The translations under genes were made by a program, and so were the position numbers. Below the pieces are notes generated by a model that saw only the letters and a program-made list of their open reading frames with translations, searched no databases and had not been told where the DNA came from. Shown piece by piece: positions 3,221-20,000 of a stretch of DNA of 20,000 bases. Source of the DNA: an uncultured virus (IMG/VR IMGVR_UViG_3300030060_003029) (lineage: Duplodnaviria; Heunggongvirae; Uroviricota; Caudoviricetes; Crassvirales); the IMG/VR virus record IMGVR_UViG_3300030060_003029, one strand, 5' to 3'. Position 1 is the stretch's first letter. Every line of letters begins with the position of its first letter.

Positions 3221-3721
3221 ATGAAATTAGAAGTATTAAGAATATCAAGTGGCCCAGAATCAACCTCTGGAATATTATTTATAGTAGATGATTCTGCAGA
3301 AAACCCACATGGAGAAGGTTTTAGATGTAAAAGAAGTTTTGTGTGTTATACATTAGAAGATGAACATAGAGATGAAAAAAAATATGGAGAAACAAGGATC
3401 CCTGCTGGGACATATAAAATTAAACTTAGAAAAGAAGGTGGATACCATCAAAAATATTCTAAAAGATTTCCTAAAATTCATCGTGGTATGCTTCATATTA
3501 CTGACGTACCTAACTTTGAGTACATCCTTATTCATTGTGGTAATACTGATGAGCATACTGCAGGATGCTTACTCGTGGGGGACTCGCAAGAAAATAATCA
3601 AATAAATGAGAATGGTTTTATAGGTAAGTCAACACAGGCTTATAAAAGAATATATCCTAGGATAGCAGAAGCCCTAGTTAATAACAAAGAGGTGTTAATA
3701 ACTTACAAAGATATTGCCTAA
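3221..3721 (+). CDS. DUF5675 family protein (L,D-transpeptidase-like fold; candidate cell-wall enzyme/endolysin)
   Basis: Motifs MKLEVLR..STSGILF, CYTLED, TRIPAGTY and ILIHCGNT..HTAGCLLVG (His/Cys pair) are typical of this family in Bacteroidota phages. Confidence 0.8.
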   Translation: MKLEVLRISSGPESTSGILFIVDDSAENPHGEGFRCKRSFVCYTLEDEHRDEKKYGETRIPAGTYKIKLRKEGGYHQKYSKRFPKIHRGMLHITDVPNFEYILIHCGNTDEHTAGCLLVGDSQENNQINENGFIGKSTQAYKRIYPRIAEALVNNKEVLITYKDIA

Positions 3722-3746
3722 CTAACAAATAAATTCACTATATTTG
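3714..3746 (+). promoter_or_regulatory. Bacteroidota-type sigma70 promoter
   Basis: TTG (3714-3716), 22 nt spacer, TATATTTG (3739-3746); two GTTAATAAC motifs lie upstream (3677-3685, 3694-3702). Confidence 0.6.
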
Positions 3747-3772
3747 ACAGTAAGTTTCATAATGTTTAGTTT

Positions 3773-3818
3773 TGGGGGGTTTTGTTTGATTCTGTATTAA
3801 ACTGCCCCCCATCCTTTT
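3773..3818 (+). terminator. GC-rich extended hairpin, terminator-like
   Basis: TGGGGGG/CCCCCCA outer stem with GTTTGAT/ATTAAAC inner stem, followed by TCCTTTT. Confidence 0.5.
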
Positions 3819-3828
3819 AATTAGTAAT

Positions 3829-4110
3829 ATGAGAGATTATAAAGACGAATATAAGAAGTTTCAATCTAGCCCTAAGCAAAGAGCTAATAATAGAAAAAGA
3901 AAGAGAGATAGGTATAAACTAGAAAAGGGTGGAAAAGTTTCTAAGTTTGATGGAAAAGAAGTTCATCATACTGAGGGCATAAACTCAGATAAACTAAGCG
4001 TTGTGTCTGCTAAAAAAAATAGAGGTAAAAAAGGAGAAGGAGGGAGAAAGAAAGGTGTTGGACATAATTACCCTAAAAAAAGAAAGTACGTAAAACGTAA
4101 TGTCAATTAA
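3829..4110 (+). CDS. Small basic HNH-like phage protein (possibly degenerate)
   Basis: RDYKDEY N-terminus and DGKEVHH...LSVVS..KNR pattern resemble a widespread small phage HNH family. Confidence 0.55.
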   Translation: MRDYKDEYKKFQSSPKQRANNRKRKRDRYKLEKGGKVSKFDGKEVHHTEGINSDKLSVVSAKKNRGKKGEGGRKKGVGHNYPKKRKYVKRNVN

Positions 4111-4719: not shown

Positions 4720-4863
4720 ATGAAAAGAATTGGTTTTGGTTTTCAGTTTTCTAATGGCATAGTATTTGGCATAAGACATTACGAGCCAGACAACGTATGT
4801 AACTATTATGAAGTTCAGGTATTTTTAGGCTTGATGGTTGTATTTGTAACTATAGAATATTAG
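4720..4863 (+). CDS. Hypothetical 47-aa protein (not in ORF track)
   Basis: ATG 1 nt after the previous stop; MKRIGFGFQFSNGIVFGIRHYEPDNVCNYYEVQVFLGLMVVFVTIEY. Confidence 0.6.
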   Translation: MKRIGFGFQFSNGIVFGIRHYEPDNVCNYYEVQVFLGLMVVFVTIEY

Positions 4864-5006
4864 AGCTTAGATTTAATAGAATTTATTCTACCCTGTATTT
4901 CGTCAACCTTAGATTTAAACTTAGATCTCTTCATTCTCTTTCTAAGAATGTTTAACATTGTAAGCTTCTCTCTCTTAGCTTTATTTCTTGCATTAGCTTT
5001 TCCCAT
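4860..5006 (-). CDS. Hypothetical 48-aa highly basic protein (not in ORF track)
   Basis: MGKANARNKAKREKLTMLNILRKRMKRSKFKSKVDEIQGRINSIKSKL; overlaps the upstream ORF end, and its stop overlaps the convergent + strand stop. Confidence 0.6.
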   Translation of the reverse strand: MGKANARNKAKREKLTMLNILRKRMKRSKFKSKVDEIQGRINSIKSKL

Positions 5007-5340
5007 CTTCTTCTTTTACAGGCTCTAGTGTTACCTCTATATCTGTTTCCCCTTCTGTAATGATACCTCCCTGTCTTGTAAATGTTCCTTTCTCTATGTT
5101 TACACTACCAACTCCATACTTCTTATTTAATTTTTCAGAAATCTTTTGTTCTTTGTTTCTATTTCCCTTAAGTCTAGCTGCCATATCTGACTCCATCTTC
5201 TCTAATTCTGATAATCTAGAATTAAGCAATATGCAATCCATTTTTATTTTTCCAAAGTCAACCATCATTCTACTGTTTTCTGATCTTATTGCTCTGATTT
5301 CTTTTATTTCTTTTTCTTCTAATTTAATTTCTTTTTCCAT
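4993..5340 (-). CDS. Hypothetical coiled-coil phage protein
   Basis: Heptad-rich, with L..KYG.GSVN.E.GTF motif; coupled to neighbours. Confidence 0.7.
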   Translation of the reverse strand: MEKEIKLEEKEIKEIRAIRSENSRMMVDFGKIKMDCILLNSRLSELEKMESDMAARLKGNRNKEQKISEKLNKKYGVGSVNIEKGTFTRQGGIITEGETDIEVTLEPVKEEDGKS

Positions 5341-5728
5341 TGTCTTTAATTTTATTATTACTTTTTATTTTTTCAATCGAACGACCTGCGAAATAGGCTG
5401 AGTAAACAACCATGAGCAAGTTTGTATAAATTGGACCATATATTGGGTTCATTTTAAACTCTCCTACATTACCATCAAAAAATGATAGAACGACAAGCAT
5501 GAATGTTAAAAACGCCATCGTAATAGGTCTTATGTTTGCTGGTAACCATCCAGCTTTAGCGTCAGCTTCCCACCTTCTAGTCACCTGCTCTTGTGCGTTA
5601 GATTCTGCATTAACCAAGATCTCTTTCATCTTGTTTTTTAAAGCTAACTTCTCTTCCTTAGTTGTTACACATTCATCAATAATGTTTGATGCATTACCAA
5701 TAAGTGATTTAAAAATTCCTTGCAACAT
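5324..5728 (-). CDS. Holin (3TM/GTA-type family)
   Basis: IIDE..TT.EEK, QVT.RW.AD, WL..NIRP, two hydrophobic helices and AYFAGRS.EK. The likely start is MLQGIFKSLIG at 5728 rather than 5809. Confidence 0.8.
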   Translation of the reverse strand: MLQGIFKSLIGNASNIIDECVTTKEEKLALKNKMKEILVNAESNAQEQVTRRWEADAKAGWLPANIRPITMAFLTFMLVVLSFFDGNVGEFKMNPIYGPIYTNLLMVVYSAYFAGRSIEKIKSNNKIKDNGKRN

Positions 5729-6308
5729 TGTGTTTTGATTTACGTGTATATTTTTTCTTATTCTTATATGGCTTAGACCTAAGATCCATTCCATTGTTCT
5801 TAGCTTCAATATCAGAATCTCTTCTAATCATTTTAGCTATTCTTTTTTTATCTGCCTCTGATATTTTTATTTTCTCCTTAATCATATCAATACATTGAAG
5901 TATTTGTTTTTTACTTCCAGGCATGTAAAGTTCGTAATTTAAATTGTTTTTTACAAGGTAATGTTTAAATAGTTTCCATTTAAGGTTAAAAACATCAGAT
6001 TTCAATCCTTTTACTTCTATTATCCATCCATCTTTCAAGTTAGTAAAGTCAGGCAAGTAGGTAGTGGATCTAATACTACTCAAAGCTTGATCGAAAACCA
6101 ACTTGCCCTTCTTTTTTCTTTTCTCTATGCTTACTCCTTCGTATTTAAGCTTATCCAAAAGTACAAATTTTTCTTTTTCATAATCAAATTTTATACCTTC
6201 TTTTTTTAATTCAGCATAGGTAAAAGCTTCCAGTCTTGACCTAAATTCTATTCCATCAATTTTGGTAGACTGAACATTTTTTATTCTACCTTTTTTATTC
6301 TTTTTCAT
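5709..6308 (-). CDS. PD-(D/E)XK endonuclease (DUF1064/T7 endonuclease I-like, candidate resolvase) with basic C-terminal extension
   Basis: IDGIEFRSRLE, FDYE, YLPDF and IIEVKG motifs. Confidence 0.8.
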   Translation of the reverse strand: MKKNKKGRIKNVQSTKIDGIEFRSRLEAFTYAELKKEGIKFDYEKEKFVLLDKLKYEGVSIEKRKKKGKLVFDQALSSIRSTTYLPDFTNLKDGWIIEVKGLKSDVFNLKWKLFKHYLVKNNLNYELYMPGSKKQILQCIDMIKEKIKISEADKKRIAKMIRRDSDIEAKNNGMDLRSKPYKNKKKYTRKSKHNVARNF

Positions 6309-6714
6309 AATCTAATATAGGAGTATTTGAAATATATTCCAAGCCCCTCCATTCTCTAGAGCTATCGTACCACCCTGTAGTATTATTAAAATTATAAAAC
6401 AAAACAGCAACGTCTTCATTTATTTCAAGTTTATCTCCAAATGGAACTGCATAGACATGGTAGCCATCAGATCCTTTACCCATATATATAAATGGGTAGC
6501 TCATACCTGTTTCCCATTGATTCATGTAAACCCTGAATCCTGTTTCTGATATATGTATAAACATTGGTTCAGAATAAATATATACATCTCCAGTTTGCTC
6601 TCCATTTGACCACTCGTAATCTATGGACTCACTTGATTGATAAACTCCTGTCCTTATTTGCGAAATACCCTGTAACGACAGGAATAAGATCGCTAAAAAA
6701 ATCATCTTCTTCAT
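6295..6714 (-). CDS. Hypothetical exported protein with signal peptide
   Basis: MKKMIFLAILFLSLQGISQ is a Bacteroidota-style signal peptide; beta-rich mature part. Confidence 0.7.
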   Translation of the reverse strand: MKKMIFLAILFLSLQGISQIRTGVYQSSESIDYEWSNGEQTGDVYIYSEPMFIHISETGFRVYMNQWETGMSYPFIYMGKGSDGYHVYAVPFGDKLEINEDVAVLFYNFNNTTGWYDSSREWRGLEYISNTPILDYEKE

Positions 6715-6745
6715 AATAAATTAAATTAAATTAATACTAAATTAA

Positions 6746-6994
6746 CTACTCAGCTAAAGGCTTCTCCTCTAGTTTCTTTTCTGTAAGCTTTTTGCTCAAT
6801 ATTATTTCCATAAAATAATCGTAGTGCTTTTTATAATCTTTTTCTGCGTTTTCTGTGTACCTAGCACCAACATACTCATGTATGTTTTCTACATATGGAG
6901 ACCATCCTAAAGCTTCCCATTTTTTTTCAACTTTTCTTTGAGCAAGTTTCGCTGCTAATTGCTCTGCGTGAATTTTAATTGTTGTATAACACAT
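6746..6994 (-). CDS. Hypothetical protein
   Basis: 82-aa ORF co-oriented in a tightly packed operon. Confidence 0.6.
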   Translation of the reverse strand: MCYTTIKIHAEQLAAKLAQRKVEKKWEALGWSPYVENIHEYVGARYTENAEKDYKKHYDYFMEIILSKKLTEKKLEEKPLAE

Positions 6995-7015
6995 AATATA
7001 TATATTAATTAATAC

Positions 7016-7279
7016 TTAGTGAACGTCATTACTCATTCCCATTTTTTCTCTCCATTTCCACCCAGTTATTTTTACATCAATACCTTGAGTAGACTTTATT
7101 TGTTTTTTTATACACGAAATTAAATAACTTCTTTTATTAAGTTCTTCAACAGTGTTTCCAACAGAACATGTTACAAATGTTCCATTGTTTTTTTTTTGAG
7201 TACTTTTCTTAACACCCTTAACCACTCTCCAAGTGTTCCATTCATACTCAACTTCTATATGCCATATTTGTTTTTTCAT
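7016..7279 (-). CDS. Hypothetical protein
   Basis: 87-aa ORF with ATGA overlap to the upstream gene. Confidence 0.65.
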   Translation of the reverse strand: MKKQIWHIEVEYEWNTWRVVKGVKKSTQKKNNGTFVTCSVGNTVEELNKRSYLISCIKKQIKSTQGIDVKITGWKWREKMGMSNDVH

Positions 7280-7554
7280 TTTAATAATGTTGCAAAAGCT
7301 GGTGTTCCCTCTCCCATGTGTGATCCAAGTATATTGTATTGAAAATACTCTGTAGCCTCTTCATTACTCATCCCATCAGCCTCTAACAACTCTATTATTT
7401 TATTTGTATCATATAGTATAATCGTTTCATTAAAACCAGACCTTTCAACCACCCCTATTATAGCGTCATCAAGTCCATCTGCAAACAAGGTGTTTTCTGA
7501 TGATAATTCTTCTACTAATTGCCTTATTGGGAATGGTTCTTTATTTTTATTCAT
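7276..7554 (-). CDS. Conserved phage hypothetical protein
   Basis: ADGLDDAIIG...YD..KII..L...GMS.EEA.EYF.YNI.G...GEGTP pattern seen widely in aquatic phages. Confidence 0.75.
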   Translation of the reverse strand: MNKNKEPFPIRQLVEELSSENTLFADGLDDAIIGVVERSGFNETIILYDTNKIIELLEADGMSNEEATEYFQYNILGSHMGEGTPAFATLLK

Positions 7555-8006
7555 AGTTTTTTAACTTTTATTTTCCCTATATAACATAGGTCTATTGTCT
7601 TTACTTTTGTAAACAAATCTTTTGCTCCTGGCCTAGTTGCTAACTCGTAAAAATCCCAACCCTTTACTTTATCTATACACTTGTCGTGAACCATCTCTTG
7701 CAAATCTTCTTTTTTTACCTCGATCCAGTAATCCTCAGTTTCAAAAGCAAATCCATCTGCGTCACCATACAACCAACCCTTCTTCCCTAATACATTTTTA
7801 AATTCTACAAAATGTATATTCTCATCATTTTTTTTAATAGCTTTTACATCTATCTTTATGTTATTTATTTTTAAATCCCAATGTTCATTGCAATCCTCTT
7901 CTTCTGTGGATAGAGATACATTTTTATATAGTTTAGCGTATTCCTTTTCAGCACGTTTACCTCTAGCCATATCCTTTGCTTTCTTATGCGAACTCTTGTA
8001 TCTCAT
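7551..8006 (-). CDS. PD-(D/E)XK restriction-endonuclease-fold protein
   Basis: G..AE...HWD...KIDVK catalytic-type motif, plus VEFKNV.G..GWLYG.AD. Confidence 0.7.
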   Translation of the reverse strand: MRYKSSHKKAKDMARGKRAEKEYAKLYKNVSLSTEEEDCNEHWDLKINNIKIDVKAIKKNDENIHFVEFKNVLGKKGWLYGDADGFAFETEDYWIEVKKEDLQEMVHDKCIDKVKGWDFYELATRPGAKDLFTKVKTIDLCYIGKIKVKKL

Positions 8007-9291
8007 GGAACTTAGTTAACTCCCTCTGAAATCTCAATCCTAGAACGCCTGTTCCAATATTCCTGCCTTTAGCAAATATAATCTCTGCTAAACCATCTGT
8101 ACTATCACCTTTTTCATCCTGCGTTATACCATAATACTCTGGCCTATAAACTAAGACCACTACATCTGCAGCTTGTTCTATCTCTCCTGACTCTCTTAAG
8201 TCTGCTATTGTTGGTCTGCTCTCTGCTCTTTGACCAACTCCCCTGTTTAATTGAGATAATGCGATGATAGTTATATTAAGTTCTTTAGCTATATTCTTCA
8301 ATGCTCTAGCTACCTCAGAAACTTCCTGCTCTCTACTCCTCCCTTTTTTATCGTTAGATACTAGTTGTAGGTAGTCAACCATAAATAACTTAACCTTCTT
8401 GGTTATAACATATTGTCTTATCCTGTTAAGAAGGTATTTAAGAGAGGAGGAGGAGCACTCATCAACATACAGGGGAACTCTTTCTATTCTTCCAACACTT
8501 TCATGTATTTTGCTTAACTCTGATTGATCCAAAGTTCCTTTCATTATCCACTTATTATCTATTCCTGTGTCAGAAGATATTAATCTGCTTAATAACTGCT
8601 GAGAACTCATCTCGTAAGAAAACAAGCACGTTGGAGTCTTGCCATAGAACGCACTATTAAAAGCAAAGGCTAAGGCAAGAGAGGTTTTACCCATAGAACT
8701 AGCACCCCCAATGATGACTAGATCAGTCTCTTGCCAGCCTCCTGTAAATTTATCTACACTTTCAAAGCCTGTTGTTATTCCATTTAAACCTTTATTGTTT
8801 ATTTTATGTTCAATGCTCTTTAACAATCCACCTAATTGCTCTGATACATTAACTATTCCATCTTTTGATATGTTTCCTATCTTTCCAACCTCTCCCTCAA
8901 CATATTCCAATATGTGAAATATATCATCATCATTAGATAACATCTCTGATATTTTAACATTTAACTCAAGCAACTGTTCTTTCTTCTTTCTTTCATTCAA
9001 TATGAGTATACAGGTTAACGCTTGTGTTTGGAGATAAGATTCTTCATTAACCATTGTCGCTAGATCATAAGATAGGTTTTCTCCTTTCTTTGATATAGTA
9101 TCCACCAAACTAAGTAAGTCTATTTTTTTATCGTTCTCTAACTCCTCTGATATATATTTATATATCCTTCTGTTTTTAGAATCCTCAAATAATTCACTAC
9201 TTAAAAGAGAGTGATTATTATAATACTCCTGAGGGTTATTTATTATCTTCCCCAACAATGTTCTTTCTATTTGACTATTATCTGCTGACAT
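7984..9291 (-). CDS. dnaB: Replicative DNA helicase
   Basis: ITTGF..VD..TGGWQ, Walker A GASSMGKT, FSYEMS, VDYLQL, ALSQLNR, DLRESGEIEQAADVV, AKGRN. Confidence 0.97.
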   Translation of the reverse strand: MSADNSQIERTLLGKIINNPQEYYNNHSLLSSELFEDSKNRRIYKYISEELENDKKIDLLSLVDTISKKGENLSYDLATMVNEESYLQTQALTCILILNERKKKEQLLELNVKISEMLSNDDDIFHILEYVEGEVGKIGNISKDGIVNVSEQLGGLLKSIEHKINNKGLNGITTGFESVDKFTGGWQETDLVIIGGASSMGKTSLALAFAFNSAFYGKTPTCLFSYEMSSQQLLSRLISSDTGIDNKWIMKGTLDQSELSKIHESVGRIERVPLYVDECSSSSLKYLLNRIRQYVITKKVKLFMVDYLQLVSNDKKGRSREQEVSEVARALKNIAKELNITIIALSQLNRGVGQRAESRPTIADLRESGEIEQAADVVVLVYRPEYYGITQDEKGDSTDGLAEIIFAKGRNIGTGVLGLRFQRELTKFHEIQEFA

Positions 9292-9775
9292 CTGTAAATT
9301 TTGGTGTTACATATTTAATACTGCTTTCATTTGATTTACCTATAACCTCATTTCTCCAAGCTTTTTGATATATCCACGTGCTTGGGTTTTTTCTATATTG
9401 TTTATCAGGTGTAGACTTTACATATAATTCTACCATCTTCAAAGCATCTTTCATGTCTGATATAGATAGCTTTTTCCACTTCTTTAAACAATCGTCTCTA
9501 TTTATCTTTTTATCATACCTATCCCAAAAGTCATTAAACATATCCATCTTCTCTGACATTATCTTCTCACTTGGTCTAATTATTGCACTATCCATTGTTG
9601 CATCTTTAAAAGAACTAGCTATCCTGTCAAAAACATTTTTAGCAAATCCTTCAGATGGGTAAACTTCTTCGTGCTTTCTAGAAGATATGTAAAAAGTTAT
9701 CTTCTTTCCATCTAGGTAGTATTGATCTATTTTATTACTCTCTATAAAAGAGTCTGTGTTTATTTTTATTAACAT
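9278..9775 (-). CDS. Putative replication initiator/replisome organiser
   Basis: C-terminal F..FW..Y.KK....C.KKW.KLS...QY.K.P.TW.....W..E domain typical of phage initiators; directly upstream of dnaB. Confidence 0.65.
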   Translation of the reverse strand: MLIKINTDSFIESNKIDQYYLDGKKITFYISSRKHEEVYPSEGFAKNVFDRIASSFKDATMDSAIIRPSEKIMSEKMDMFNDFWDRYDKKINRDDCLKKWKKLSISDMKDALKMVELYVKSTPDKQYRKNPSTWIYQKAWRNEVIGKSNESSIKYVTPKFTDVSR

Positions 9776-9795
9776 ATAATCAAATTATGGTTATT

Positions 9796-9823
9796 ATAGG
9801 GGATGCTATGACACACCCCCCAT
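9796..9823 (-). other. Intergenic RNA hairpin
   Basis: ATGGGGGGTGT/GCATCCCCTAT 11-bp stem with GU pairs on the minus strand; no U tract after it. Confidence 0.55.
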
Positions 9824-9840
9824 AAAAAACAAATAAAAAA

Positions 9841-10110
9841 TTAAAATGGTAAATCATCCTTTGTTGCTGACGCTGTCTCCTTTTGAGGTTCAGGTTTAAA
9901 ATCATTGATCTTAACGTAGTGTGTTTTACCATACTCGTTAGCACCATCTTTATTGGCACCAATAGTTAAGTTAACATACTTCTTACCCTCGTAAGTATAA
10001 ACGTGTTCTCCAATCTTATCTAAGTGTAGAGTCATGTTTATAATTGAGCCACCATCATTAAAGGTAACTTCTTTTCCATTTCCACAAAAAATTGCTTCTT
10101 TCTTTTCCAT
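9841..10110 (-). CDS. Single-stranded DNA-binding protein (Bacteroidota phage type)
   Basis: Short beta-rich protein with YGKTHY motif and acidic DDLPF C-terminus, within the recombination/replication module. Confidence 0.75.
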   Translation of the reverse strand: MEKKEAIFCGNGKEVTFNDGGSIINMTLHLDKIGEHVYTYEGKKYVNLTIGANKDGANEYGKTHYVKINDFKPEPQKETASATKDDLPF

Positions 10111-10139
10111 AATAAAATAATTAAATAGTTAGTAAATAG

Positions 10140-10331
10140 TTATATAAATAAATTGTTGTACGCCCATGTGTCATCCACACTCATCATTTCAGAGATCAGT
10201 CTAATTTCCTGTGCGTTAAACGTATCAGGAGATTCTAACCTCTTTGATATAGTTGGCCTAGACACACCAACGTAGTCTGCTATCTCTTGCTGAGATATTT
10301 TTCTTGCTCTAAGTTCTGTTTTTAATTTCAT
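10140..10331 (-). CDS. Cro/XRE-type helix-turn-helix protein
   Basis: ISQQEIADYVGVSRPTISKR. Confidence 0.85.
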   Translation of the reverse strand: MKLKTELRARKISQQEIADYVGVSRPTISKRLESPDTFNAQEIRLISEMMSVDDTWAYNNLFI

Positions 10332-10342
10332 AGTAATTGTTT

Positions 10343-11107
10343 TTAAAGTATTGATTCAACATAATAGTCATTAATTTCTCTGTCTTGTTTTATAAAATAT
10401 GTATCGTACAAGTTTAATAGTTCTTTATATTTAGTTCTTCCAAGTTCCATGAAACCTTCACTTGACATATATATCCCAACATCAAATGGTTCTGTTTTTT
10501 CTATAACAATAAACCAAAATTCATCAGCCCCAAATCCATCAAGATAAAATGCTGACTGCCTATCATAACCATATTTCAAAGATGAACGTCTAAACTCATT
10601 TATAACGTGGCTTTGAGTTGTCTTTATATCTACAATAATCTTTCTTCCATTCTCATTTTTTACATAATCTGCCTTACCTTTACAATAAACACCAGTGTCT
10701 TGATCCTCCCAACAATTAACAATCTCTGCCTTTCCATTAGATAATAGGTTTTTAACTCTTGGTATGGACAATAACTTTTCTCTCATTTTATACAAAGACT
10801 TCTCCTCTCCTTTTGTAATAATAGTTTTATCATTATTATTAAGTTTAAACTCATCCCAAGCCTTACCTCTCCTTGTTCCATCGTAAGATATAACCTGATC
10901 CTTATACTTCTCAGGCTCTAATATATTTTGGTGAAAGGCTCTACCAAATAGTAAAGCGTTAGTATCATCTTGCCCCCATTTTCTATAATGCTCTAATTTA
11001 GCTGGTGAATGTGCCAATTTACCTAACTGAGAATTTGTTATAAAATTCTTGTCACCATAATAAATATTATCACTATCAAAATTTTTTATGTATTTAGCGA
11101 AATCCAT
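10343..11107 (-). CDS. RecE/exonuclease VIII-like PD-(D/E)XK nuclease (DUF3799-like)
   Basis: FGRAFH..ILEP, CKGKADY, IVDIKTT, YGYDRQSAFY, FIVIEK. Confidence 0.88.
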   Translation of the reverse strand: MDFAKYIKNFDSDNIYYGDKNFITNSQLGKLAHSPAKLEHYRKWGQDDTNALLFGRAFHQNILEPEKYKDQVISYDGTRRGKAWDEFKLNNNDKTIITKGEEKSLYKMREKLLSIPRVKNLLSNGKAEIVNCWEDQDTGVYCKGKADYVKNENGRKIIVDIKTTQSHVINEFRRSSLKYGYDRQSAFYLDGFGADEFWFIVIEKTEPFDVGIYMSSEGFMELGRTKYKELLNLYDTYFIKQDREINDYYVESIL

Positions 11108-11108
11108 A

Positions 11109-11627
11109 TTATTGCTTTTCTATTTCTAACATTAATAACTTTCTTTGATCCTCAGTCATAGAGTAGCTATCCATTCTTTGCTTAACAACTAAAGATTCTC
11201 CATCTCTGATAGCTTTCATCATGGCATCAAACTGACTACTTGTTAATTTTTTTTTACCACTAGCTTGTTTCTTTTTGGGTATCTCTGTTTGTGCTATTGC
11301 GTTTGCAACTTCATGTGCTGAAGCAACCTGACTATCTATTCCAATGCCAAAGTTTGCTAATGCCCTACCCCACGCAGACGTTTCACAAACCTCGACAAAG
11401 GATGTTTTGTTAATAAAACTAGCTGATCTAACTTCGTGTGCATGTCCTGTTGCAATTGGAACTCCACCATGTACGATAGTAGCTTTTATAACACAATGTT
11501 CTTCTGTACATTGTATAATTTCTGTTACTAGTGAATGTTCAGGATGATTCTCTCTGAAATACTTGAGTCTTTCGTTAACTTCAACGTATTCTTTACCTTT
11601 AATGTTTATAGTTTTTAGTTTAGTCAT
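11109..11627 (-). CDS. Putative single-strand annealing protein (Rad52/Sak-like)
   Basis: KGKEYVEVNERL, ATGHAHE and ETSAWGRALA..GIG motifs; adjacent to exonuclease and SSB. Confidence 0.65.
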   Translation of the reverse strand: MTKLKTINIKGKEYVEVNERLKYFRENHPEHSLVTEIIQCTEEHCVIKATIVHGGVPIATGHAHEVRSASFINKTSFVEVCETSAWGRALANFGIGIDSQVASAHEVANAIAQTEIPKKKQASGKKKLTSSQFDAMMKAIRDGESLVVKQRMDSYSMTEDQRKLLMLEIEKQ

Positions 11628-11652
11628 AATTAATTAAATTAAATTGTTTTTA

Positions 11653-11660
11653 CAAATATA
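11653..11660 (-). promoter_or_regulatory. Candidate -7 promoter element for the recombination/replication genes
   Basis: TATATTTG on the minus strand 25 nt upstream of the 11627 start; no clear -33 element at 19 nt. Confidence 0.45.
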
Positions 11661-11682
11661 TTAAACTTTCTTTACAATATGC

Positions 11683-12162
11683 TTACTTTAGCATGTATTT
11701 TTTCTTAAAATTTATTAACAATCCATGTATTCTTTCTTTCTCTAATTTCTCATTCATCCATAGATCTTTATATCTTCCTATGGTTTTGTCTTGTTCTTCT
11801 ATCTTTTTTTTCATATCTATATTTCTAGATGCTTCAATGTCTTCACTATTAACATATAGTCCTAGATGATCCATTGATTTATTATAGAAATTTCTATACA
11901 TGATATTTGTTTTATAATCTATGTCGTGCATACCTCTTGCATGAACAATAGATGCGTGGTTTTTATATCCCAATATATCTCTCAAGTTGTGGTTAGTATA
12001 GTTAAAGTTTCTATATAGTAAATTAACCAATACTTGCCTTGCTATAACCACGTTTGCGTGTCTTGTAGCAGTTCTGTTTCTTATTATTTTATCTTCAGGA
12101 ACATTACAAACTTCAGATACTATATTTATTATATTCTTTTCTAGTATTTCCATGATTCTCAT
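11683..12162 (-). CDS. DnaA C-terminal (domain IV) HTH-containing protein with coiled-coil tail
   Basis: II..VSE...V....I......R...VVIARQV...L.......L..ILG..NHASIVHA matches the domain IV pattern (canonical RDHTTVxH); no AAA+ domain. Confidence 0.75.
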   Translation of the reverse strand: MRIMEILEKNIINIVSEVCNVPEDKIIRNRTATRHANVVIARQVLVNLLYRNFNYTNHNLRDILGYKNHASIVHARGMHDIDYKTNIMYRNFYNKSMDHLGLYVNSEDIEASRNIDMKKKIEEQDKTIGRYKDLWMNEKLEKERIHGLLINFKKKYMLK

Positions 12163-13017: not shown

Positions 13018-13194
13018 TTAATGTCTACTATAATTTTCATTTTCATTTAGTTGGACTAGTCTTGTTGCCAATCTTTCCAACATTACAATTTCTTTATCAA
13101 AATCACTTTCTAAATTTTTTTCCTCAATTAAGTTTATGGTTTTATCCACTAACTCAATTAATGATTCTAAATTATTACTTTGCCATTTTTCCAT
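13018..13194 (-). CDS. Hypothetical 58-aa protein (not in ORF track)
   Basis: MEKWQSNNLESLIELVDKTINLIEEKNLESDFDKEIVMLERLATRLVQLNENENYSRH, with an A-rich leader. Confidence 0.6.
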   Translation of the reverse strand: MEKWQSNNLESLIELVDKTINLIEEKNLESDFDKEIVMLERLATRLVQLNENENYSRH

Positions 13195-13206
13195 AATGTT
13201 TATTTA

Positions 13207-13651: not shown

Positions 13652-14050
13652 TTATTTATAAAATTTAATTAACTCTTTTGGGTTACCCTCAAATACAAAC
13701 TTTTTCTCATAGTTATCATATATCTTTATTTGTATATCTCCTGTATCATCGCAAACCTCAACGTGATACTCATACTCTTGCCCCATATTATTATTATTTA
13801 CTGGAAATATATATATGCCCCCAACTTCTTTTTTCTTTTCAGATATTAATTGTGCAATAAGACAAGCAACGCCACTTGCCTTTGACATATCTTCCCTGTC
13901 TCCTACGCCATTAGTTAGTTTTTTACTATCTAAAAATTCTGCTAATTCACAACCCCAAGCGTAAGGATGTCCATCAAATTGTTTATACATATTTAATGTT
14001 GCTTGTGTATCTCTTTTTTCTTTAATGTATGTAAGTGAACGTGTTCCCAT
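13652..14050 (-). CDS. Conserved early phage hypothetical protein
   Basis: MGTRSLT...YKQFDGHP...G..L...EYEY pattern, common among phage early genes. Confidence 0.75.
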   Translation of the reverse strand: MGTRSLTYIKEKRDTQATLNMYKQFDGHPYAWGCELAEFLDSKKLTNGVGDREDMSKASGVACLIAQLISEKKKEVGGIYIFPVNNNNMGQEYEYHVEVCDDTGDIQIKIYDNYEKKFVFEGNPKELIKFYK

Positions 14051-14089
14051 AATGTTTATTTGTTTAGTTAATGTTTCAGTTTCTTATTG

Positions 14090-14120: not shown

Positions 14121-14150
14121 CTATTTTGACATAAGTTATTAACAATGTTA

Positions 14151-15243: not shown

Positions 15244-15435
15244 TTATTTAATTTTAATTAATTGATCTTCTGTTAAGTCTTCGCATAGATATTCTAATGG
15301 TTTAAACCTTATAGGTTTTAATTGATACTTTTGTACATTTCCATTGTTATCTAATTTTTCGTTTCCATCTTCATCTACCATATAGAATTGAATATCCCAT
15401 ACTGATACTGAATAGTTTTTATTTTCTTTTTCCAT
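15244..15435 (-). CDS. Hypothetical protein
   Basis: 63-aa ORF with an A-rich leader. Confidence 0.65.
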   Translation of the reverse strand: MEKENKNYSVSVWDIQFYMVDEDGNEKLDNNGNVQKYQLKPIRFKPLEYLCEDLTEDQLIKIK

Positions 15436-15631
15436 AATTTTATTTAGTTTTTAAAGTGTCTTTGTAAGGACTTGGTGGACTTCTTGTTGTTTTTTTACCC
15501 CTACCTTCTTTGTTTCACAAGTGGACACTAACATTAATGTTTCTTTATTTTATTTTGTTTTTCTTTCAGATAATTCTTGTTGTTTTACTTCTGTATTTAT
15601 TATCATACTCAGAAGGTTAATACTCTTTATA

Positions 15632-15676: not shown

Positions 15677-15829
15677 TTATTCCAAAGATATTAACAAAGT
15701 TATTAACAATTGTTTTTTTGTTTGGATCAAAACACGCATGTTTTTTTCATTCATGCTTGTCATAGTAATATAATCATAGTAATTTTTTTTGGGGAGAACA
15801 TTCATCTCCCCTTGTGTATAACTAATCAT
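15677..15829 (-). CDS. Possible 50-aa hypothetical protein
   Basis: MISYTQGEMNVLPKKNYYDY...; start overlaps the upstream stop (TAATG), but the ORF runs over regulatory motifs. Confidence 0.35.
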   Translation of the reverse strand: MISYTQGEMNVLPKKNYYDYITMTSMNEKNMRVLIQTKKQLLITLLISLE

Positions 15830-16341
15830 TATGCAGTAATTTTATTTAGTAATCTGTATTGATAATCATAATCATCTAAGTCATTATAAAAATTCCCATC
15901 TTCATCTTCTTGAACAAAGTCCTCTCTATCGTGTGTGTAAATAGCATTTCCATCTTGATTTGTCCACCTTTCATTAGATTCTTTGATAGATTCTTTTATC
16001 TGTATTTCTTTCTGTTCTATTTCTTCTTCATACATCTTCTTTGTGAATAGTGCAACCTCGTTTACGTTACATAGTATTCCTATAGCATAGATTGTGTCAT
16101 CTATTTCAAATACTTGATATGTTCCATGGTTTTCAAATTCTCCTTCTTCATATTCTCCTACACCAAATACATATCCATCTCCATCTTTCCAAACCTTGTC
16201 AGCATGTTGTTCGTTGACTCTTTTTTTAGCAAAGTTCATAGCTTTCCTTTTGGTGTCAAATACTTGTATTTCTGTTCCATTGTTAGAAGAATATCCTTCT
16301 CCATTCCAAGTATCTATTACGATATATTTTTTAGTTGTCAT
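15829..16341 (-). CDS. Acidic hypothetical early protein
   Basis: 170-aa, D/E-rich ORF directly downstream of the ardC-like gene. Confidence 0.75.
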   Translation of the reverse strand: MTTKKYIVIDTWNGEGYSSNNGTEIQVFDTKRKAMNFAKKRVNEQHADKVWKDGDGYVFGVGEYEEGEFENHGTYQVFEIDDTIYAIGILCNVNEVALFTKKMYEEEIEQKEIQIKESIKESNERWTNQDGNAIYTHDREDFVQEDEDGNFYNDLDDYDYQYRLLNKITA

Positions 16342-16357
16342 AGTTTTTAGTTTTTTG

Positions 16358-16392: not shown

Positions 16393-17322
16393 CTATTTAT
16401 TTAGTATGTACTCTACTGCTTTTTGTGCTTGACTACTCGCATAAACAATCTCTCTTGGGTTGTTTTTTAGGTGCTTTATCCAACCATTGATGTATGCTTG
16501 ACTATTCTTGTCATTATCCTTTGGCTTTAGTCCTAATATGTTAGTTAGAAACATTGCACCTAATTCTGCGACTAATTCCTCTTGACTATATTTAGTCTTA
16601 TTAGAGTTTGTAGCGTTCAAAGTCTTTCTGTTTAATAAGTCCTTATGTCCTGTTGAATGAGTCAATTCGTGGAAGAATACTTTATAATAGTCATCAGATG
16701 AAATAAATGTATTTGGACTGCTCATGTTGATTAGATGTTGACTTGGCTTGTAGTGGCAACCAATGTTGTCTCTATGTTCCAATGTGGGCTTCTTTCTCAT
16801 ATTATCGTATACTGAATCTGCTTCTTTGATTGACTCAAATATACTACCCTTGATTACTTTTTGAATGTTGTGTTTGTCCTCTATGCCCTCAACACAATCA
16901 AGATTGAATACTCTAAAATAACTCGCACTCATTGACTTGTCAACATCTTTCATGGTGTAACCCTTTGGAATTACTAAATCTTCCAATCTACTGCCCTTTA
17001 GATATATTCTTTTGCCTTTGCTATCTGTTACAAAATAAGCTACTCTCCAATTGACTACAATGTCTGAAACACTACCTTTTTTAACTTTGCCACCTAAATT
17101 CTTAGCTTGATTAAATGTGATAAATTCTCTGCTTGAGTAGTTATTGAAGTACATTGACATACTCAATAACATTTGATTAATACCTTTGTAAATCTTGCCA
17201 GTGGTGTGACTTATCGTCATAGTATCTGTGTTACCTGCCCATGATTGAAACCACTCATGCCCACCTTCCTCAAGTCCTTTGATTACTTGCTCTGTGATAA
17301 TTTGATATACATCTTTTTTCAT
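16393..17322 (-). CDS. ardC: ArdC-like antirestriction protein (ssDNA-binding N-domain plus zincin metallopeptidase domain)
   Basis: DVYQIIT..VI..LE.G, TGK.YKGIN...L, ITFNQAK..GGKVKKG, FRVFN, HELTHSTGH (HExxH), YSQEELVAELGA, NSQAYINGW, AQKAVEYI. Confidence 0.92.
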   Translation of the reverse strand: MKKDVYQIITEQVIKGLEEGGHEWFQSWAGNTDTMTISHTTGKIYKGINQMLLSMSMYFNNYSSREFITFNQAKNLGGKVKKGSVSDIVVNWRVAYFVTDSKGKRIYLKGSRLEDLVIPKGYTMKDVDKSMSASYFRVFNLDCVEGIEDKHNIQKVIKGSIFESIKEADSVYDNMRKKPTLEHRDNIGCHYKPSQHLINMSSPNTFISSDDYYKVFFHELTHSTGHKDLLNRKTLNATNSNKTKYSQEELVAELGAMFLTNILGLKPKDNDKNSQAYINGWIKHLKNNPREIVYASSQAQKAVEYILNK

Positions 17323-17342
17323 AATAATTAGTTTAGTTTTTT

Positions 17343-17421
17343 AGTAATAGACACCCCTTCTAAGTCTTCCTCTTAGCGTACTAAGGGGTGTTTCGCTTTT
17401 TTAAAGCTCATCAGTATTACT
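17343..17421 (-). ncRNA. Type I hammerhead ribozyme
   Basis: Minus strand: stem I AGUAAUA, core CUGAUGA, stem II GCUUU/AAAGC, GAA, stem III ACACCCCUU/AAGGGGUGU, cleavage triplet GUC, stem I' UAUUACU. Confidence 0.92.
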
Positions 17422-17609
17422 TATTCCCATATATAATCATAATACTCATCTACTATAATTAGATTAACCTCTAAAGAATTGTGTATTTTACTTATGTGGT
17501 TAGTTTCCATATTATCATTTTCAATATGTTTAACTAATTTCTTCAAATCCCTTAATAATAATATCTTTGCTTCTTGATATTTTTTATCTGTATACTTAGC
17601 TTCATTCAT
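17421..17609 (-). CDS. Hypothetical protein
   Basis: 62-aa ORF whose stop abuts the ribozyme. Confidence 0.65.
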   Translation of the reverse strand: MNEAKYTDKKYQEAKILLLRDLKKLVKHIENDNMETNHISKIHNSLEVNLIIVDEYYDYIWE

Positions 17610-17633
17610 AATGTTTTAAATTTTAATTATTAA

Positions 17634-17801
17634 TTACTTTGCTCTTTCCTCTATTAATTCTTTTGCTATTTTTAAACTGAATTTAAGTGACATATCTAAT
17701 TGCCCTTCTAAATCTTTTAATTGCCCTTCCAATTCCTCTATTCTTTTTCTTTGCTTGATTATTGTATCATAATCTCTATCTCTTAATACCTCTGTTTTCA
17801 T
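17634..17801 (-). CDS. Hypothetical 55-aa coiled-coil protein, first gene of the early unit (not in ORF track)
   Basis: MKTEVLRDRDYDTIIKQRKRIEELEGQLKDLEGQLDMSLKFSLKIAKELIEERAK with an internal LEGQL repeat; AAACTAAACACATT-ATG leader. Confidence 0.65.
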   Translation of the reverse strand: MKTEVLRDRDYDTIIKQRKRIEELEGQLKDLEGQLDMSLKFSLKIAKELIEERAK

Positions 17802-17849
17802 AATGTGTTTAGTTTAAGTTAGTGATTAACCTCGTGTCAATCATTTCTG

Positions 17850-18640: not shown

Positions 18641-18942
18641 CCAGCAGTGTAAGTCATAGCAGTAACATACTGGTAGATCCCAGAAGTCTTACTATGTTCT
18701 ATAGTGTGCAAACCATTTTTGTTTAAGATTTCAGATATGTCCCTAATTATAGTGCTTATATAGTGTTTATTTACAGTCAGCGTAATCAGGTCTGGGTCGA
18801 CTATATTGCCTTCAGCAGCGAAATATATAAATATAGATCCTGTTGTGCCTGAAGTATAGGATGAATACATGTACTTGAATATACTTTTATTAAATACATG
18901 TTCTGTTGTGTTTGCTGTAACTATAAAATTTATTGTGCCCAT
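18637..18942 (-). CDS. Hypothetical protein
   Basis: 101-aa ORF; start overlaps the upstream stop (TAATG). Confidence 0.7.
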   Translation of the reverse strand: MGTINFIVTANTTEHVFNKSIFKYMYSSYTSGTTGSIFIYFAAEGNIVDPDLITLTVNKHYISTIIRDISEILNKNGLHTIEHSKTSGIYQYVTAMTYTAG

Positions 18943-20000
18943 TAGCAGTATTTTCTTTTAGACATTCCACCCTTCTTGAATATGTTTTTCTTAGGGGGGG
19001 TTTTGCCTGTCTTCACATACATCTTTTCCTCTTTAGACTTGAGAACTCCTAACATGTCTCTTTTGTGTTTTTTACTATCCTCAGCACCTGATCCCTTTAG
19101 GTATTTATCTTGTAGAGTACCACCACTTACATATTTCCTTTTCTTTTTTACTACTCCACCTTTTTTCATCACAGCTTCTCCTGATGTTGATCCACCTCCA
19201 CCTTCTGCTTGATTAGCTTCTTTAGCAGCTCTTGCTTCATCCTGCTCTAATTGAGACATTCCCTCTCCTTCTTTACCACCTTCTTCTCCTATGACTTTTA
19301 TTTTTAATACTTTTCCAACACCTAGCTTACCTTTTCCTGCTTCACCTGACTTTCCTTGTTTCTTTTTACCAAGAAGGGCTAGGGGTCCCATGGCTATTGT
19401 TTGCATTAATCCACCTAAAAAAAATTTTTTTGAATCTTTATTTTTCTTATATCTAGAAACTCTTCCTTTAGTGTTTTTTTCCATTTTTGCTTTTCTTTTT
19501 TCCCCCTTACTTAATTCTGACCAAGTTGCTGGGGTATCTTTATTTATTCTTTTTGTTGGTCTAAAAGTGTTCTCTCCACCTTTGTNNNNNNNNNNACCTC
19601 CTTCGCCCCAGTTAGCAGCCCCTACTTTTCTACACTTAGCCATAGCACCACTTCTATAGGCAGAGGTCTTAGGGCCATATCTTGAAACAACTTTATGATA
19701 ACAAGCATCTTTTGTTGTACCACCACTAACATACTTCCTCTTAGCCATCTTAGCGTCTTGCTTAGGATTATGTTTTTTCTGAACAGGGAACGTAGCCTTC
19801 AAACTAGCTCCTTCATGCTTCTTGAATGGCTTATTGCCATGCTCCATTAATTTGTATTTACCACTACCCTTCTTCATGAAGTGGAATCCCTTAGGTGCAC
19901 TAACGCCACCTTTTTCATATTGTCTAACAGGGCTTTTCTTATTGGCTTTCACCATACATCCATCATCACAGTTCCATTTTCTTAAAGACTTGTTTATTCT
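18942..20000 (-). CDS. Lys-rich multidomain protein with repeated xxGG motifs; 5'-truncated and spanning an assembly gap
   Basis: The frame is open to the window edge (RINKSLRKWNCDDGC precedes M at 19955). Ten Ns at 19586-19595 make continuity uncertain. Confidence 0.65.
   Translation of the reverse strand, partial: RINKSLRKWNCDDGCMVKANKKSPVRQYEKGGVSAPKGFHFMKKGSGKYKLMEHGNKPFKKHEGASLKATFPVQKKHNPKQDAKMAKRKYVSGGTTKDACYHKVVSRYGPKTSAYRSGAMAKCRKVGAANWGEGGXXXXKGGENTFRPTKRINKDTPATWSELSKGEKRKAKMEKNTKGRVSRYKKNKDSKKFFLGGLMQTIAMGPLALLGKKKQGKSGEAGKGKLGVGKVLKIKVIGEEGGKEGEGMSQLEQDEARAAKEANQAEGGGGSTSGEAVMKKGGVVKKKRKYVSGGTLQDKYLKGSGAEDSKKHKRDMLGVLKSKEEKMYVKTGKTPPKKNIFKKGGMSKRKYC

What the first reader, a model, noticed from the sequence alone, without database searches (positions are those of the whole stretch)
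3739..3818. Candidate small RNA antisense to the start-codon regions of several early genes
Seen: a + strand promoter (TATATTTG 3739-3746) is followed by TTTCATAATGTTTAGTTTT (3755-3773) and a strong hairpin. This segment is the reverse complement of a typical start region of this phage, yet the minus-strand ORF it would open is only 12 codons. It matches + strand sequence over minus-strand gene starts: TTCATAATGTTT (17605-17616), CATAATGTTTA (14048-14058 and 13192-13202) and TTTCATAATG-tg-TTTAGTTT (17796-17815). Inference: a roughly 65-nt trans-acting RNA that masks AUG and leader of early mRNAs (or host mRNAs), acting as an early-to-late switch or superinfection control. AT-richness makes chance matches possible.
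Basis: partly seen in the sequence, partly recalled or inferred. Interest (0 to 1): 0.7.

Follow-up and report, generated by a model that had tools for sequence, protein, structure and literature searches.

The report
Phage RNA mirroring start codons
A marine phage that probably infects Bacteroidota carries a conserved gene for a roughly 68-base RNA whose free front end is the mirror image of a strong translation-start region, much like the known FopS regulators of gut Bacteroides, so it probably dampens translation of the phage's own early genes or of host genes, though no RNA or target has been shown.

Summary
At 3739-3818 (+) a Bacteroidota -7 box is followed by an unpaired anti-start-codon stretch and a terminator hairpin. 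Ten distinct variants in related phages keep all three parts: 13 of 15 seed bases are invariant, 4 of 13 stem pairs change on both sides, and the minus-strand mini-ORF is not conserved (1-21 codons). The same layout recurs in unrelated phages: a terminator follows 18 of 25 distinct viral pattern hits against 2 of 60 in cellular genomes. In a scan that did not ask for CAT, 14 of 16 terminator-capped hits had it. The closest known RNA is FopS of Bacteroides (same size, promoter spacing and layout; up to 21 of 23 5' bases shared), but the Rfam FopS cut-off is not reached. Early-gene starts pair better than late ones (mean -10.1 vs -5.6 kcal/mol). The seed is also simply the strong-start consensus, host starts match too, and seed-target co-variation was not shown. 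No transcript evidence was available. This scan has reported FopS-like phage RNAs on at least eight other genomes. Verdict: a real FopS-like phage small RNA gene; its target set is open.

The parts
3739..3746 (+). -7 promoter box of the Bacteroidota primary sigma factor (TATATTTG)
   Evidence: fits TAHHTTTG with start 4-5 nt downstream (PMC6847099 passages). Kept as TATMTTTR in 10 of 10 variants, but ending in A in 9 of 10. No -33 TTG at the usual spacing (sequence).
3751..3818 (+). Predicted small RNA, about 68 nt (start inferred, 3751-3752)
   Evidence: Start inferred from promoter spacing and from FopS spacing; fold; one strong copy in the window and in each of two nearly complete relatives searched with model R1.
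3755..3773 (+). Single-stranded seed, reverse complement of a strong start region; anti-AUG CAT at 3758-3760
   Evidence: 13 of 15 positions from the CAT on are invariant in 10 variants, mean pairwise identity 0.96 vs 0.69 for 16 nt upstream of the box; unpaired probability 0.95 in the 68-nt RNA, 0.49 in a read-through transcript.
3773..3811 (+). Terminator hairpin
   Evidence: 13-18 pairs, -17.6 to -23.1 kcal/mol in all 10 variants, always stronger on + than -; 4 of 13 consensus pairs change on both sides, one sequence each.
3812..3818 (+). U-rich tail (TCCTTTT; weak here, 5-8 T in most relatives)
3693..3701 (+). TGTTAATAA box inside the DUF5675 gene, 46 nt before the -7 box; possible regulator site
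   Evidence: Same distance in the window and 5 of 5 relatives examined; 47 nt before an early -7 box at 14144(-). 10 copies in the window vs about 1 in mononucleotide shuffles. Codon conservation only suggestive, P 0.06.
3221..3721 (+). Upstream gene, DUF5675 (putative peptidoglycan hydrolase), end of the virion/late operon
   Evidence: Pfam PF18925; relatives annotated as transpeptidase domain or peptidoglycan hydrolase
3829..4110 (+). Downstream gene of unknown function; no separate TAHHTTTG box between terminator and ATG
17796..17815 (-). Candidate target: start of first early ORF (ATG 17801), -15.7 kcal/mol
17605..17616 (-). Candidate target: start at 17609, -12.7
17317..17344 (-). Candidate target: start of ArdC-like gene (ATG 17322), -15.0
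16336..16354 (-). Candidate target: start at 16341, -12.9
15430..15453 (-). Candidate target: start at 15435, -13.5
14048..14058 (-). Candidate target: start at 14050, -13.7
13192..13202 (-). Candidate target: start at 13194, -14.1; same leader kept in relatives G002 and G004

Best explanation
This is a single-copy, FopS-like trans-acting small RNA gene. Host RNA polymerase starts about 4-5 nt after TATATTTG and stops at the hairpin, giving about 68 nt (inferred). The unpaired 5' part pairs across the AUG and the A-rich leader (-13 to +6) of mRNAs with a strong Bacteroidota start region and blocks ribosome loading (inferred from FopS). It is a broad dimmer, not a one-target switch. Per gene its best partners are the phage's own early genes, while virion genes largely escape; a few percent of host genes, many of them exported proteins, are also within reach. 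Shown: anatomy, conservation, strand asymmetry, recurrence in unrelated phages, pairing potential. Inferred: transcription, timing, repression, targets.
For: Conservation of box, seed, hairpin and tail in 10 variants, with the antisense ORF lost. A terminator follows 18 of 25 distinct viral vs 2 of 60 cellular hits to the same pattern, P 6e-11; shuffled controls 4 of 50 and 7 of 120. CAT-free scan: 14 of 16 terminator-capped vs 8 of 45 uncapped loci have CAT in seed position, P 1e-6; after dropping 7 loci seen earlier, 8 of 10 vs 7 of 44, P 2e-4. Some distant copies have a second promoter for the next gene right after the terminator (L194, L204, L230, L251, L118; read by eye). 5 of 10 variants begin GTGTTT exactly 4 nt after the box, as FopS does; 16-21 of the first 23 FopS bases are matched by six of seven variants aligned, 12 by the short one. 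Early starts (19) mean -10.1 vs late (17) -5.6 kcal/mol, P 2e-4; G002 6 early -6.8 vs 28 late -4.3, P 0.03. At least 10 of 13 leader matches in 5 of 19 early starts vs 12 of 650 starts of two Flavobacteriales genomes, P 5e-5. The seed covers A at -3, -6, -12 and -13, the positive determinants of initiation (PMC6847099).
Against: No transcript data. 9 of 10 variants end the -7 box in A where G is nearly invariant in F. johnsoniae. Unconstrained duplex ranking puts early starts on top only in the window; in G002, G005, G007 and G008 non-start sites dominate the top 16. In G007 the seed has A where its ArdC-like start has C, a mismatch, so there is no co-variation there. Early starts may match only because both follow the strong-start consensus. 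The Rfam FopS model does not reach the window copy at E<=10 and gives a relative 18.9 bits against a cut-off of 56; our model does not find real FopS. The ten variants are related, and each compensatory change is in one sequence. The viral patterns were designed from this element.
Confidence: 0.65

Rival explanations
1. Same RNA, but selected for host targets as FopS is: it represses host outer-membrane and secreted proteins (transporters, possibly the phage receptor, giving superinfection exclusion or saving resources). The matches to early genes are a by-product of shared start consensus.
For: FopS targets are enriched in outer-membrane SusC-like transporters (PMC11697453 section 11). Host starts with >=9 of 13 leader matches are signal-peptide-like in 19 of 29 vs 214 of 621 others, P 0.001. 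One-mismatch hits in 61 Flavobacteriales genomes include OmpA, DUF6089 and T9SS-sorted proteins. No seed-target co-variation in G007.
Against: Per gene, phage early starts match far more often than host starts (5 of 19 vs 12 of 650). The signal-peptide excess is significant in only one of two genomes by each measure. The host is unknown; both stretches were chosen because they held a match; starts and signal peptides were called by heuristics.
Confidence: 0.2
2. Not an independent RNA: the seed is the 3' tail of the long late mRNA, ending at the terminator, and acts (if at all) as a 3'-UTR or processed fragment or as a binding site for a host RNA-binding protein such as an RbpB-like RRM protein.
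For: In the window and in 11 of 11 distant loci examined, the box lies within about 45 nt after, or overlaps the end of, a same-strand ORF. One FopS member is 3'-derived and FopS binds RbpB through its 5' part. The -7 box is non-canonical in 9 of 10 variants.
Against: The box is conserved at FopS-like spacing, while the spacer varies from 5 to 13 nt before the CAT. The seed is much less accessible in a read-through transcript (0.49 vs 0.95).
Confidence: 0.08
3. The conserved stretch is a DNA element: a second promoter (TAGTTTTG at 3767-3774, with TTTG 20 nt upstream) or an attenuated leader for the 3829-4863 genes, and the hairpin is just the operon terminator.
For: TAGTTTTG matches TAnnTTTG; the downstream genes have no other box; the tail is weak in the window.
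Against: G at -10 is virtually absent from F. johnsoniae promoters. L096 lacks the motif and many distant copies have TAGTTTTT. It does not explain the CAT association.
Confidence: 0.05
4. Relic or active start region of a minus-strand micro-ORF.
For: The perfect complement is a real gene start in unrelated phages (L083; Cellulophaga phage phiSM).
Against: The ORF is 1 codon in four variants and 5, 12, 18, 19, 19 and 21 codons in the others; 1-5 G-U pairs and the T tail favour the plus strand.
Confidence: 0.02

Closest known systems
FopS, family of paralogous sRNAs of Bacteroides (Rfam RF04319; PMC11697453)
   Same: About 65-70 nt; primary-sigma -7 box 4 nt before the start; single-stranded 5' seed containing CAU that pairs at start codons; intrinsic terminator. 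The 5' end GUGUUUUUCAUA is shared with relative L103 (20 of 23 bases). One phage copy is mentioned in the paper; prophage BX-TP2 holds another.
   Different: Single copy in a marine phage, not 12-15 chromosomal copies; the seed runs straight into the hairpin without the AAGGUUAA segment; the hairpin is unrelated; Rfam cut-off not reached; best predicted partners are phage early genes; no such element found in the Flavobacteriales genomes sampled.
GibS sRNA of Bacteroides thetaiotaomicron (Rfam RF04182; PMC7366714)
   Same: Unstructured 5' seed pairing across start codons of mRNAs that lack Shine-Dalgarno sequences (passages).
   Different: 145 nt, two seeds, non-canonical promoter; no Rfam match here.
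Phage trans-acting sRNAs such as lambda PreS (10.1101/2024.10.31.621285, search listing only) and P1 c4 (recalled; cited in PMC2864571)
   Same: Phage-encoded RNA acting by base pairing.
   Different: As recalled, these have one or a few specific targets; here the seed mirrors the general start consensus.

Membership tests
FopS (RF04319) | Covariance-model score at or above 56 bits | tested here: not met
   Window not listed at E<=10; relative G005 18.9 bits, top hit in its record; element not listed in G002, G004, G007. Real FopS scores 77.3.
FopS (RF04319) | Primary-sigma promoter with start about 4 nt after the -7 box | tested here: met
   Sequence only: TATATTTG in the window, TATMTTTA in 9 relatives; GTGTTT 4 nt after the box in 5 of 10.
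FopS (RF04319) | [quoted passage not shown] | tested here: met
   (predicted, 68 nt).
FopS (RF04319) | R1/R1' seed sequence | tested here: inconclusive
   16 of 23 5' bases match in the window, 18-21 in five relatives, 12 in a short one. Exact R1' limits are in figures I could not see; convergence on the same target consensus is possible.
FopS (RF04319) | Multicopy in the genome | tested here: not met
   One strong copy each in the window, G002 and G007.
FopS (RF04319) | Represses translation by pairing near start codons; bound by RbpB | not testable with these tools
   Only predicted duplexes.
GibS (RF04182) | About 145 nt, R1 and R2 seeds, PM2 promoter | tested here: not met
   Length 68 nt, canonical box, no Rfam match.

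The most novel reading that the evidence does not exclude
Many unrelated Bacteroidota phages encode a small RNA that is the antisense of the phylum's general strong translation-start signal, and use it to turn down their own early genes and part of the host's translation at once, while virion genes with weaker or very short leaders escape: an RNA-based early-to-late switch that exploits Shine-Dalgarno-free initiation.
Probability: 0.35. Interest if true: 0.8.

Novelty: new variant of a known kind. Interest (0 to 1): 0.55.

Why it matters
If true, phages of a major marine and gut phylum control timing or host takeover with an RNA aimed at the phylum's own start signal, not at single genes. In print I found only one phage FopS copy, noted in passing (PMC11697453). 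The element also gives a natural read-out of which leader bases matter for initiation in Bacteroidota, and a short testable repressor for Flavobacterium reporter systems. Interest is tempered by the FopS precedent, by earlier reports of the class in this scan, and by the lack of expression data.

Tried and rejected
No whole genome is held for the window. RNA runs: no RNA holder listed, which is no evidence either way; read laying was therefore not used. Rfam over the window found nothing at the element, and nothing credible over 20 loci with the layout. MasB was considered from memory; the passages read describe a narrowly conserved 100-nt RNA pairing in a coding region, so it was rejected. 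Unconstrained duplex ranking was noisy because of G-U pairing; fixed start windows were used instead. Seed-target co-variation: not found in G007; a hint in L521 (two early starts pair better with its own seed, -14.2 and -10.2 vs -7.0 and -6.3), but n=2 and the rest of that contig could not be fetched. Host-chromosome copies: 10 hits in 301 Flavobacteriales genomes, 0 with a terminator; a GTGTTT-type pattern hit 59 of 201 genomes, about as often as its reversed control, and 1 of the 30 loci returned had a weak terminator. A cultured model phage: BLAST of two phage elements gave only chance-level hits; the Cellulophaga phiSM hit is an ordinary gene start. A structural alignment of the 20 distant copies failed because their hairpins are unrelated, so no model was built from it. 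Earlier findings by sequence and by place: none.

Full report
1. Setting. The window is part of an AT-rich (31% GC) phage; the most complete close record is 59.5 kb and 96% complete. The plus strand carries a virion protein, DUF5675 and small genes. The minus strand carries replication genes (DnaB, PDDEXK) and a run of small ORFs with an ArdC-like gene. I call minus-strand genes above 12162 'early', those from 4860 to 12162 'middle' and plus-strand genes 'late'; these labels come from position and annotation, not from expression. A Bacteroidota host is inferred from TAnnTTTG boxes and A-rich leaders; the best helicase hit among cultured phages, a Riemerella phage at 36%, is weak support.

2. 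Observation. All quoted strings and coordinates are right. 3750-3822 folds as an open 5' part plus one hairpin, -21 kcal/mol, with 0 of 200 shuffles as good. With the start 4-5 nt after the -7 box (PMC6847099), the RNA would run 3751-3818, 68 nt, with the seed 95% unpaired.

3. Close relatives. Of 80 loci returned for DUF5675 (of 295 found), the 8 closest carry the element after the stop codon; the other 72 did not show it by eye. Of 80 loci returned for the downstream gene (of 195), the 14 closest carry it and one distant locus (L118) has an analogous unit. A metagenome scan gave 14 hits, 10 of this clade and 4 unrelated. Ten distinct variants were compared. The box is TATMTTTR in all; the spacer to the CAT varies from 5 to 13 nt; 13 of 15 seed bases are invariant; the hairpin has 13-18 pairs, folds better on the plus strand and is followed by a T run. 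On the MAFFT alignment 96% of cells pair and 4 of 13 pairs change on both sides, one sequence each; slid controls pair 45-64%. The antisense ORF is 1 to 21 codons. So selection acts on a plus-strand RNA or on the DNA, not on a peptide.

4. A wider class. A box-CAT-TTTAGTTTT pattern returned 80 viral loci. After collapsing those at least 80% alike, 28 of 52 were followed by a hairpin of -8 kcal/mol or better with a U tail, against 2 of 104 shuffles. With the narrower pattern also used on cellular genomes (65 loci), the counts were 18 of 25 viral and 2 of 60 cellular, P 6e-11; real FopS would not match this pattern. Of 61 distinct loci, 14 of 16 with a terminator had CAT in seed position, against 8 of 45 without. 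Dropping the 7 seen before leaves 8 of 10 vs 7 of 44, P 2e-4; dropping two doubtful CATs as well gives P 0.002. In 11 distant loci read in context the unit sits at the end of a same-strand gene, often beside lysis genes or just before the small terminase.

5. Targets. In the window, 19 early starts pair at a mean of -10.1 kcal/mol, 15 middle at -6.6 and 17 late (5 from the window, 12 from near-identical G004) at -5.6; 3 of 1000 leader-shuffled seeds did as well on the early set. G002 shows the same trend more weakly (6 early, P 0.03; 34 of 1000 shuffles); G007 has only two early genes. Against two 400-kb stretches of Flavobacteriales genomes, 12 of 650 called starts and 0 of 1153 internal ATGs reach 10 of 13 leader matches, against 5 of 19 early starts. 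The best host matches lean to signal-peptide-like proteins (19 of 29 vs 214 of 621). Against a specific early-gene role: the seed's complement has A at -3, -6, -12 and -13, the known determinants of strong initiation, so strong starts of any origin will match; free duplex ranking does not single out starts in four relatives; and G007 shows a seed change not mirrored in its ArdC-like start.

6. Mechanism. Most likely (0.65) a broad translational dimmer that masks AUG and leader, with phage early mRNAs the best partners per gene and some host mRNAs within reach. Timing is open. The position at the end of the late operon suggests late expression, but a TGTTAATAA box 46 nt before its -7 box resembles an early promoter (47 nt). 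Rivals: host-directed like FopS (0.2), 3'-UTR tail or protein-binding site (0.08), DNA promoter or attenuator (0.05), micro-ORF relic (0.02).

7. What is known. FopS RNAs of Bacteroides are 65-70 nt, start from the primary-sigma promoter, have an unpaired 5' seed and a terminator, and block start regions of SusC-like mRNAs; one copy in a Caudovirales phage is mentioned (PMC11697453: passages, sections 8 and 11, and the oligo sheet of supplementary file 4; the main supplementary PDF, the source data and all figures were not seen and may hold the seed limits and the phage copy's details). Real FopS loci from Bacteroides propionicifaciens score 77 bits on RF04319. Our element works like FopS by anatomy and shares much of its 5' sequence, but fails the family cut-off and is single copy, so I do not file it as a member. 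Other papers seen as passages only: PMC7366714, PMC10994844, PMC6847099, PMC2864571, PMC10690425 (four seed strings not found in the supplements searched, files 1, 2 and 4 not searched). Searches found no paper describing this class in phages; the library lacks most subscription papers.

8. Novelty. A new variant of a known kind. This scan has already noted FopS-like anti-start RNAs on other DNA (10 findings in at least 10 genomes, 8 shown); I reached FopS before reading those notes and did not check them. What this locus adds is a ten-variant conserved clade, a virus-versus-cell control, a CAT-free test and a measured preference for early starts. Interest 0.55.

Noticed in passing
window 17345-17437 (-): Hammerhead ribozyme candidate (Rfam RAGATH-1, 31.7 bits, cut-off 56.3; E 0.0007 on the local stretch) with an intact-looking CUGAUGAG/CGAAAC/GUC core, ending about 25-30 nt before the ArdC-like start codon, itself a top predicted target. 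No CTGAnGA core in the 130 nt before the ArdC-like gene of G007.
   Followed up: partly
window 3693, 11712, 14136, 14148, 15094, 15700, 18026 and others: TTATTAACA/TGTTAATAA boxes (DnaA-box-like, label recalled), 10 copies vs about 1 expected, several at fixed distances before -7 boxes and conserved in relatives; the phage encodes a DnaA C-terminal HTH-like protein at 11683-12162 (-), below the Pfam cut-off.
   Followed up: partly
G002 26028 and 34912; G007 29117 and 38221; L194, L251: Several late genes have TATATTTG 5-7 nt before the ATG, implying nearly leaderless mRNAs that would escape a leader-pairing RNA.
   Followed up: no
L521:10072-11808: In this lineage the homologue of the 93-aa gene at 3829 is the N-terminus of a 578-aa ORF.
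   Followed up: no
L351 / L230, just after the FopS-like unit: A permuted tmRNA (RF04321, 56.7 bits, above cut-off) follows the unit in a phage record, after the large terminase.
   Followed up: no
L609 (PQ571285.1, 44811-44863): Induced Bacteroides prophage BX-TP2 carries a near-identical FopS 5' region with promoter in an unannotated stretch; a tractable system for the phage-FopS question.
   Followed up: partly
window 4860-4863: The last plus-strand and last minus-strand genes overlap at their stop codons with no terminator found between them, so antisense read-through is likely.
   Followed up: no
window 16380-16355 (-) and 15791-15811: Further G+C-rich hairpins between early genes; not examined.
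   Followed up: no
window 19586-19595: A run of N inside the 18942-19955 ORF, an assembly gap.
   Followed up: no
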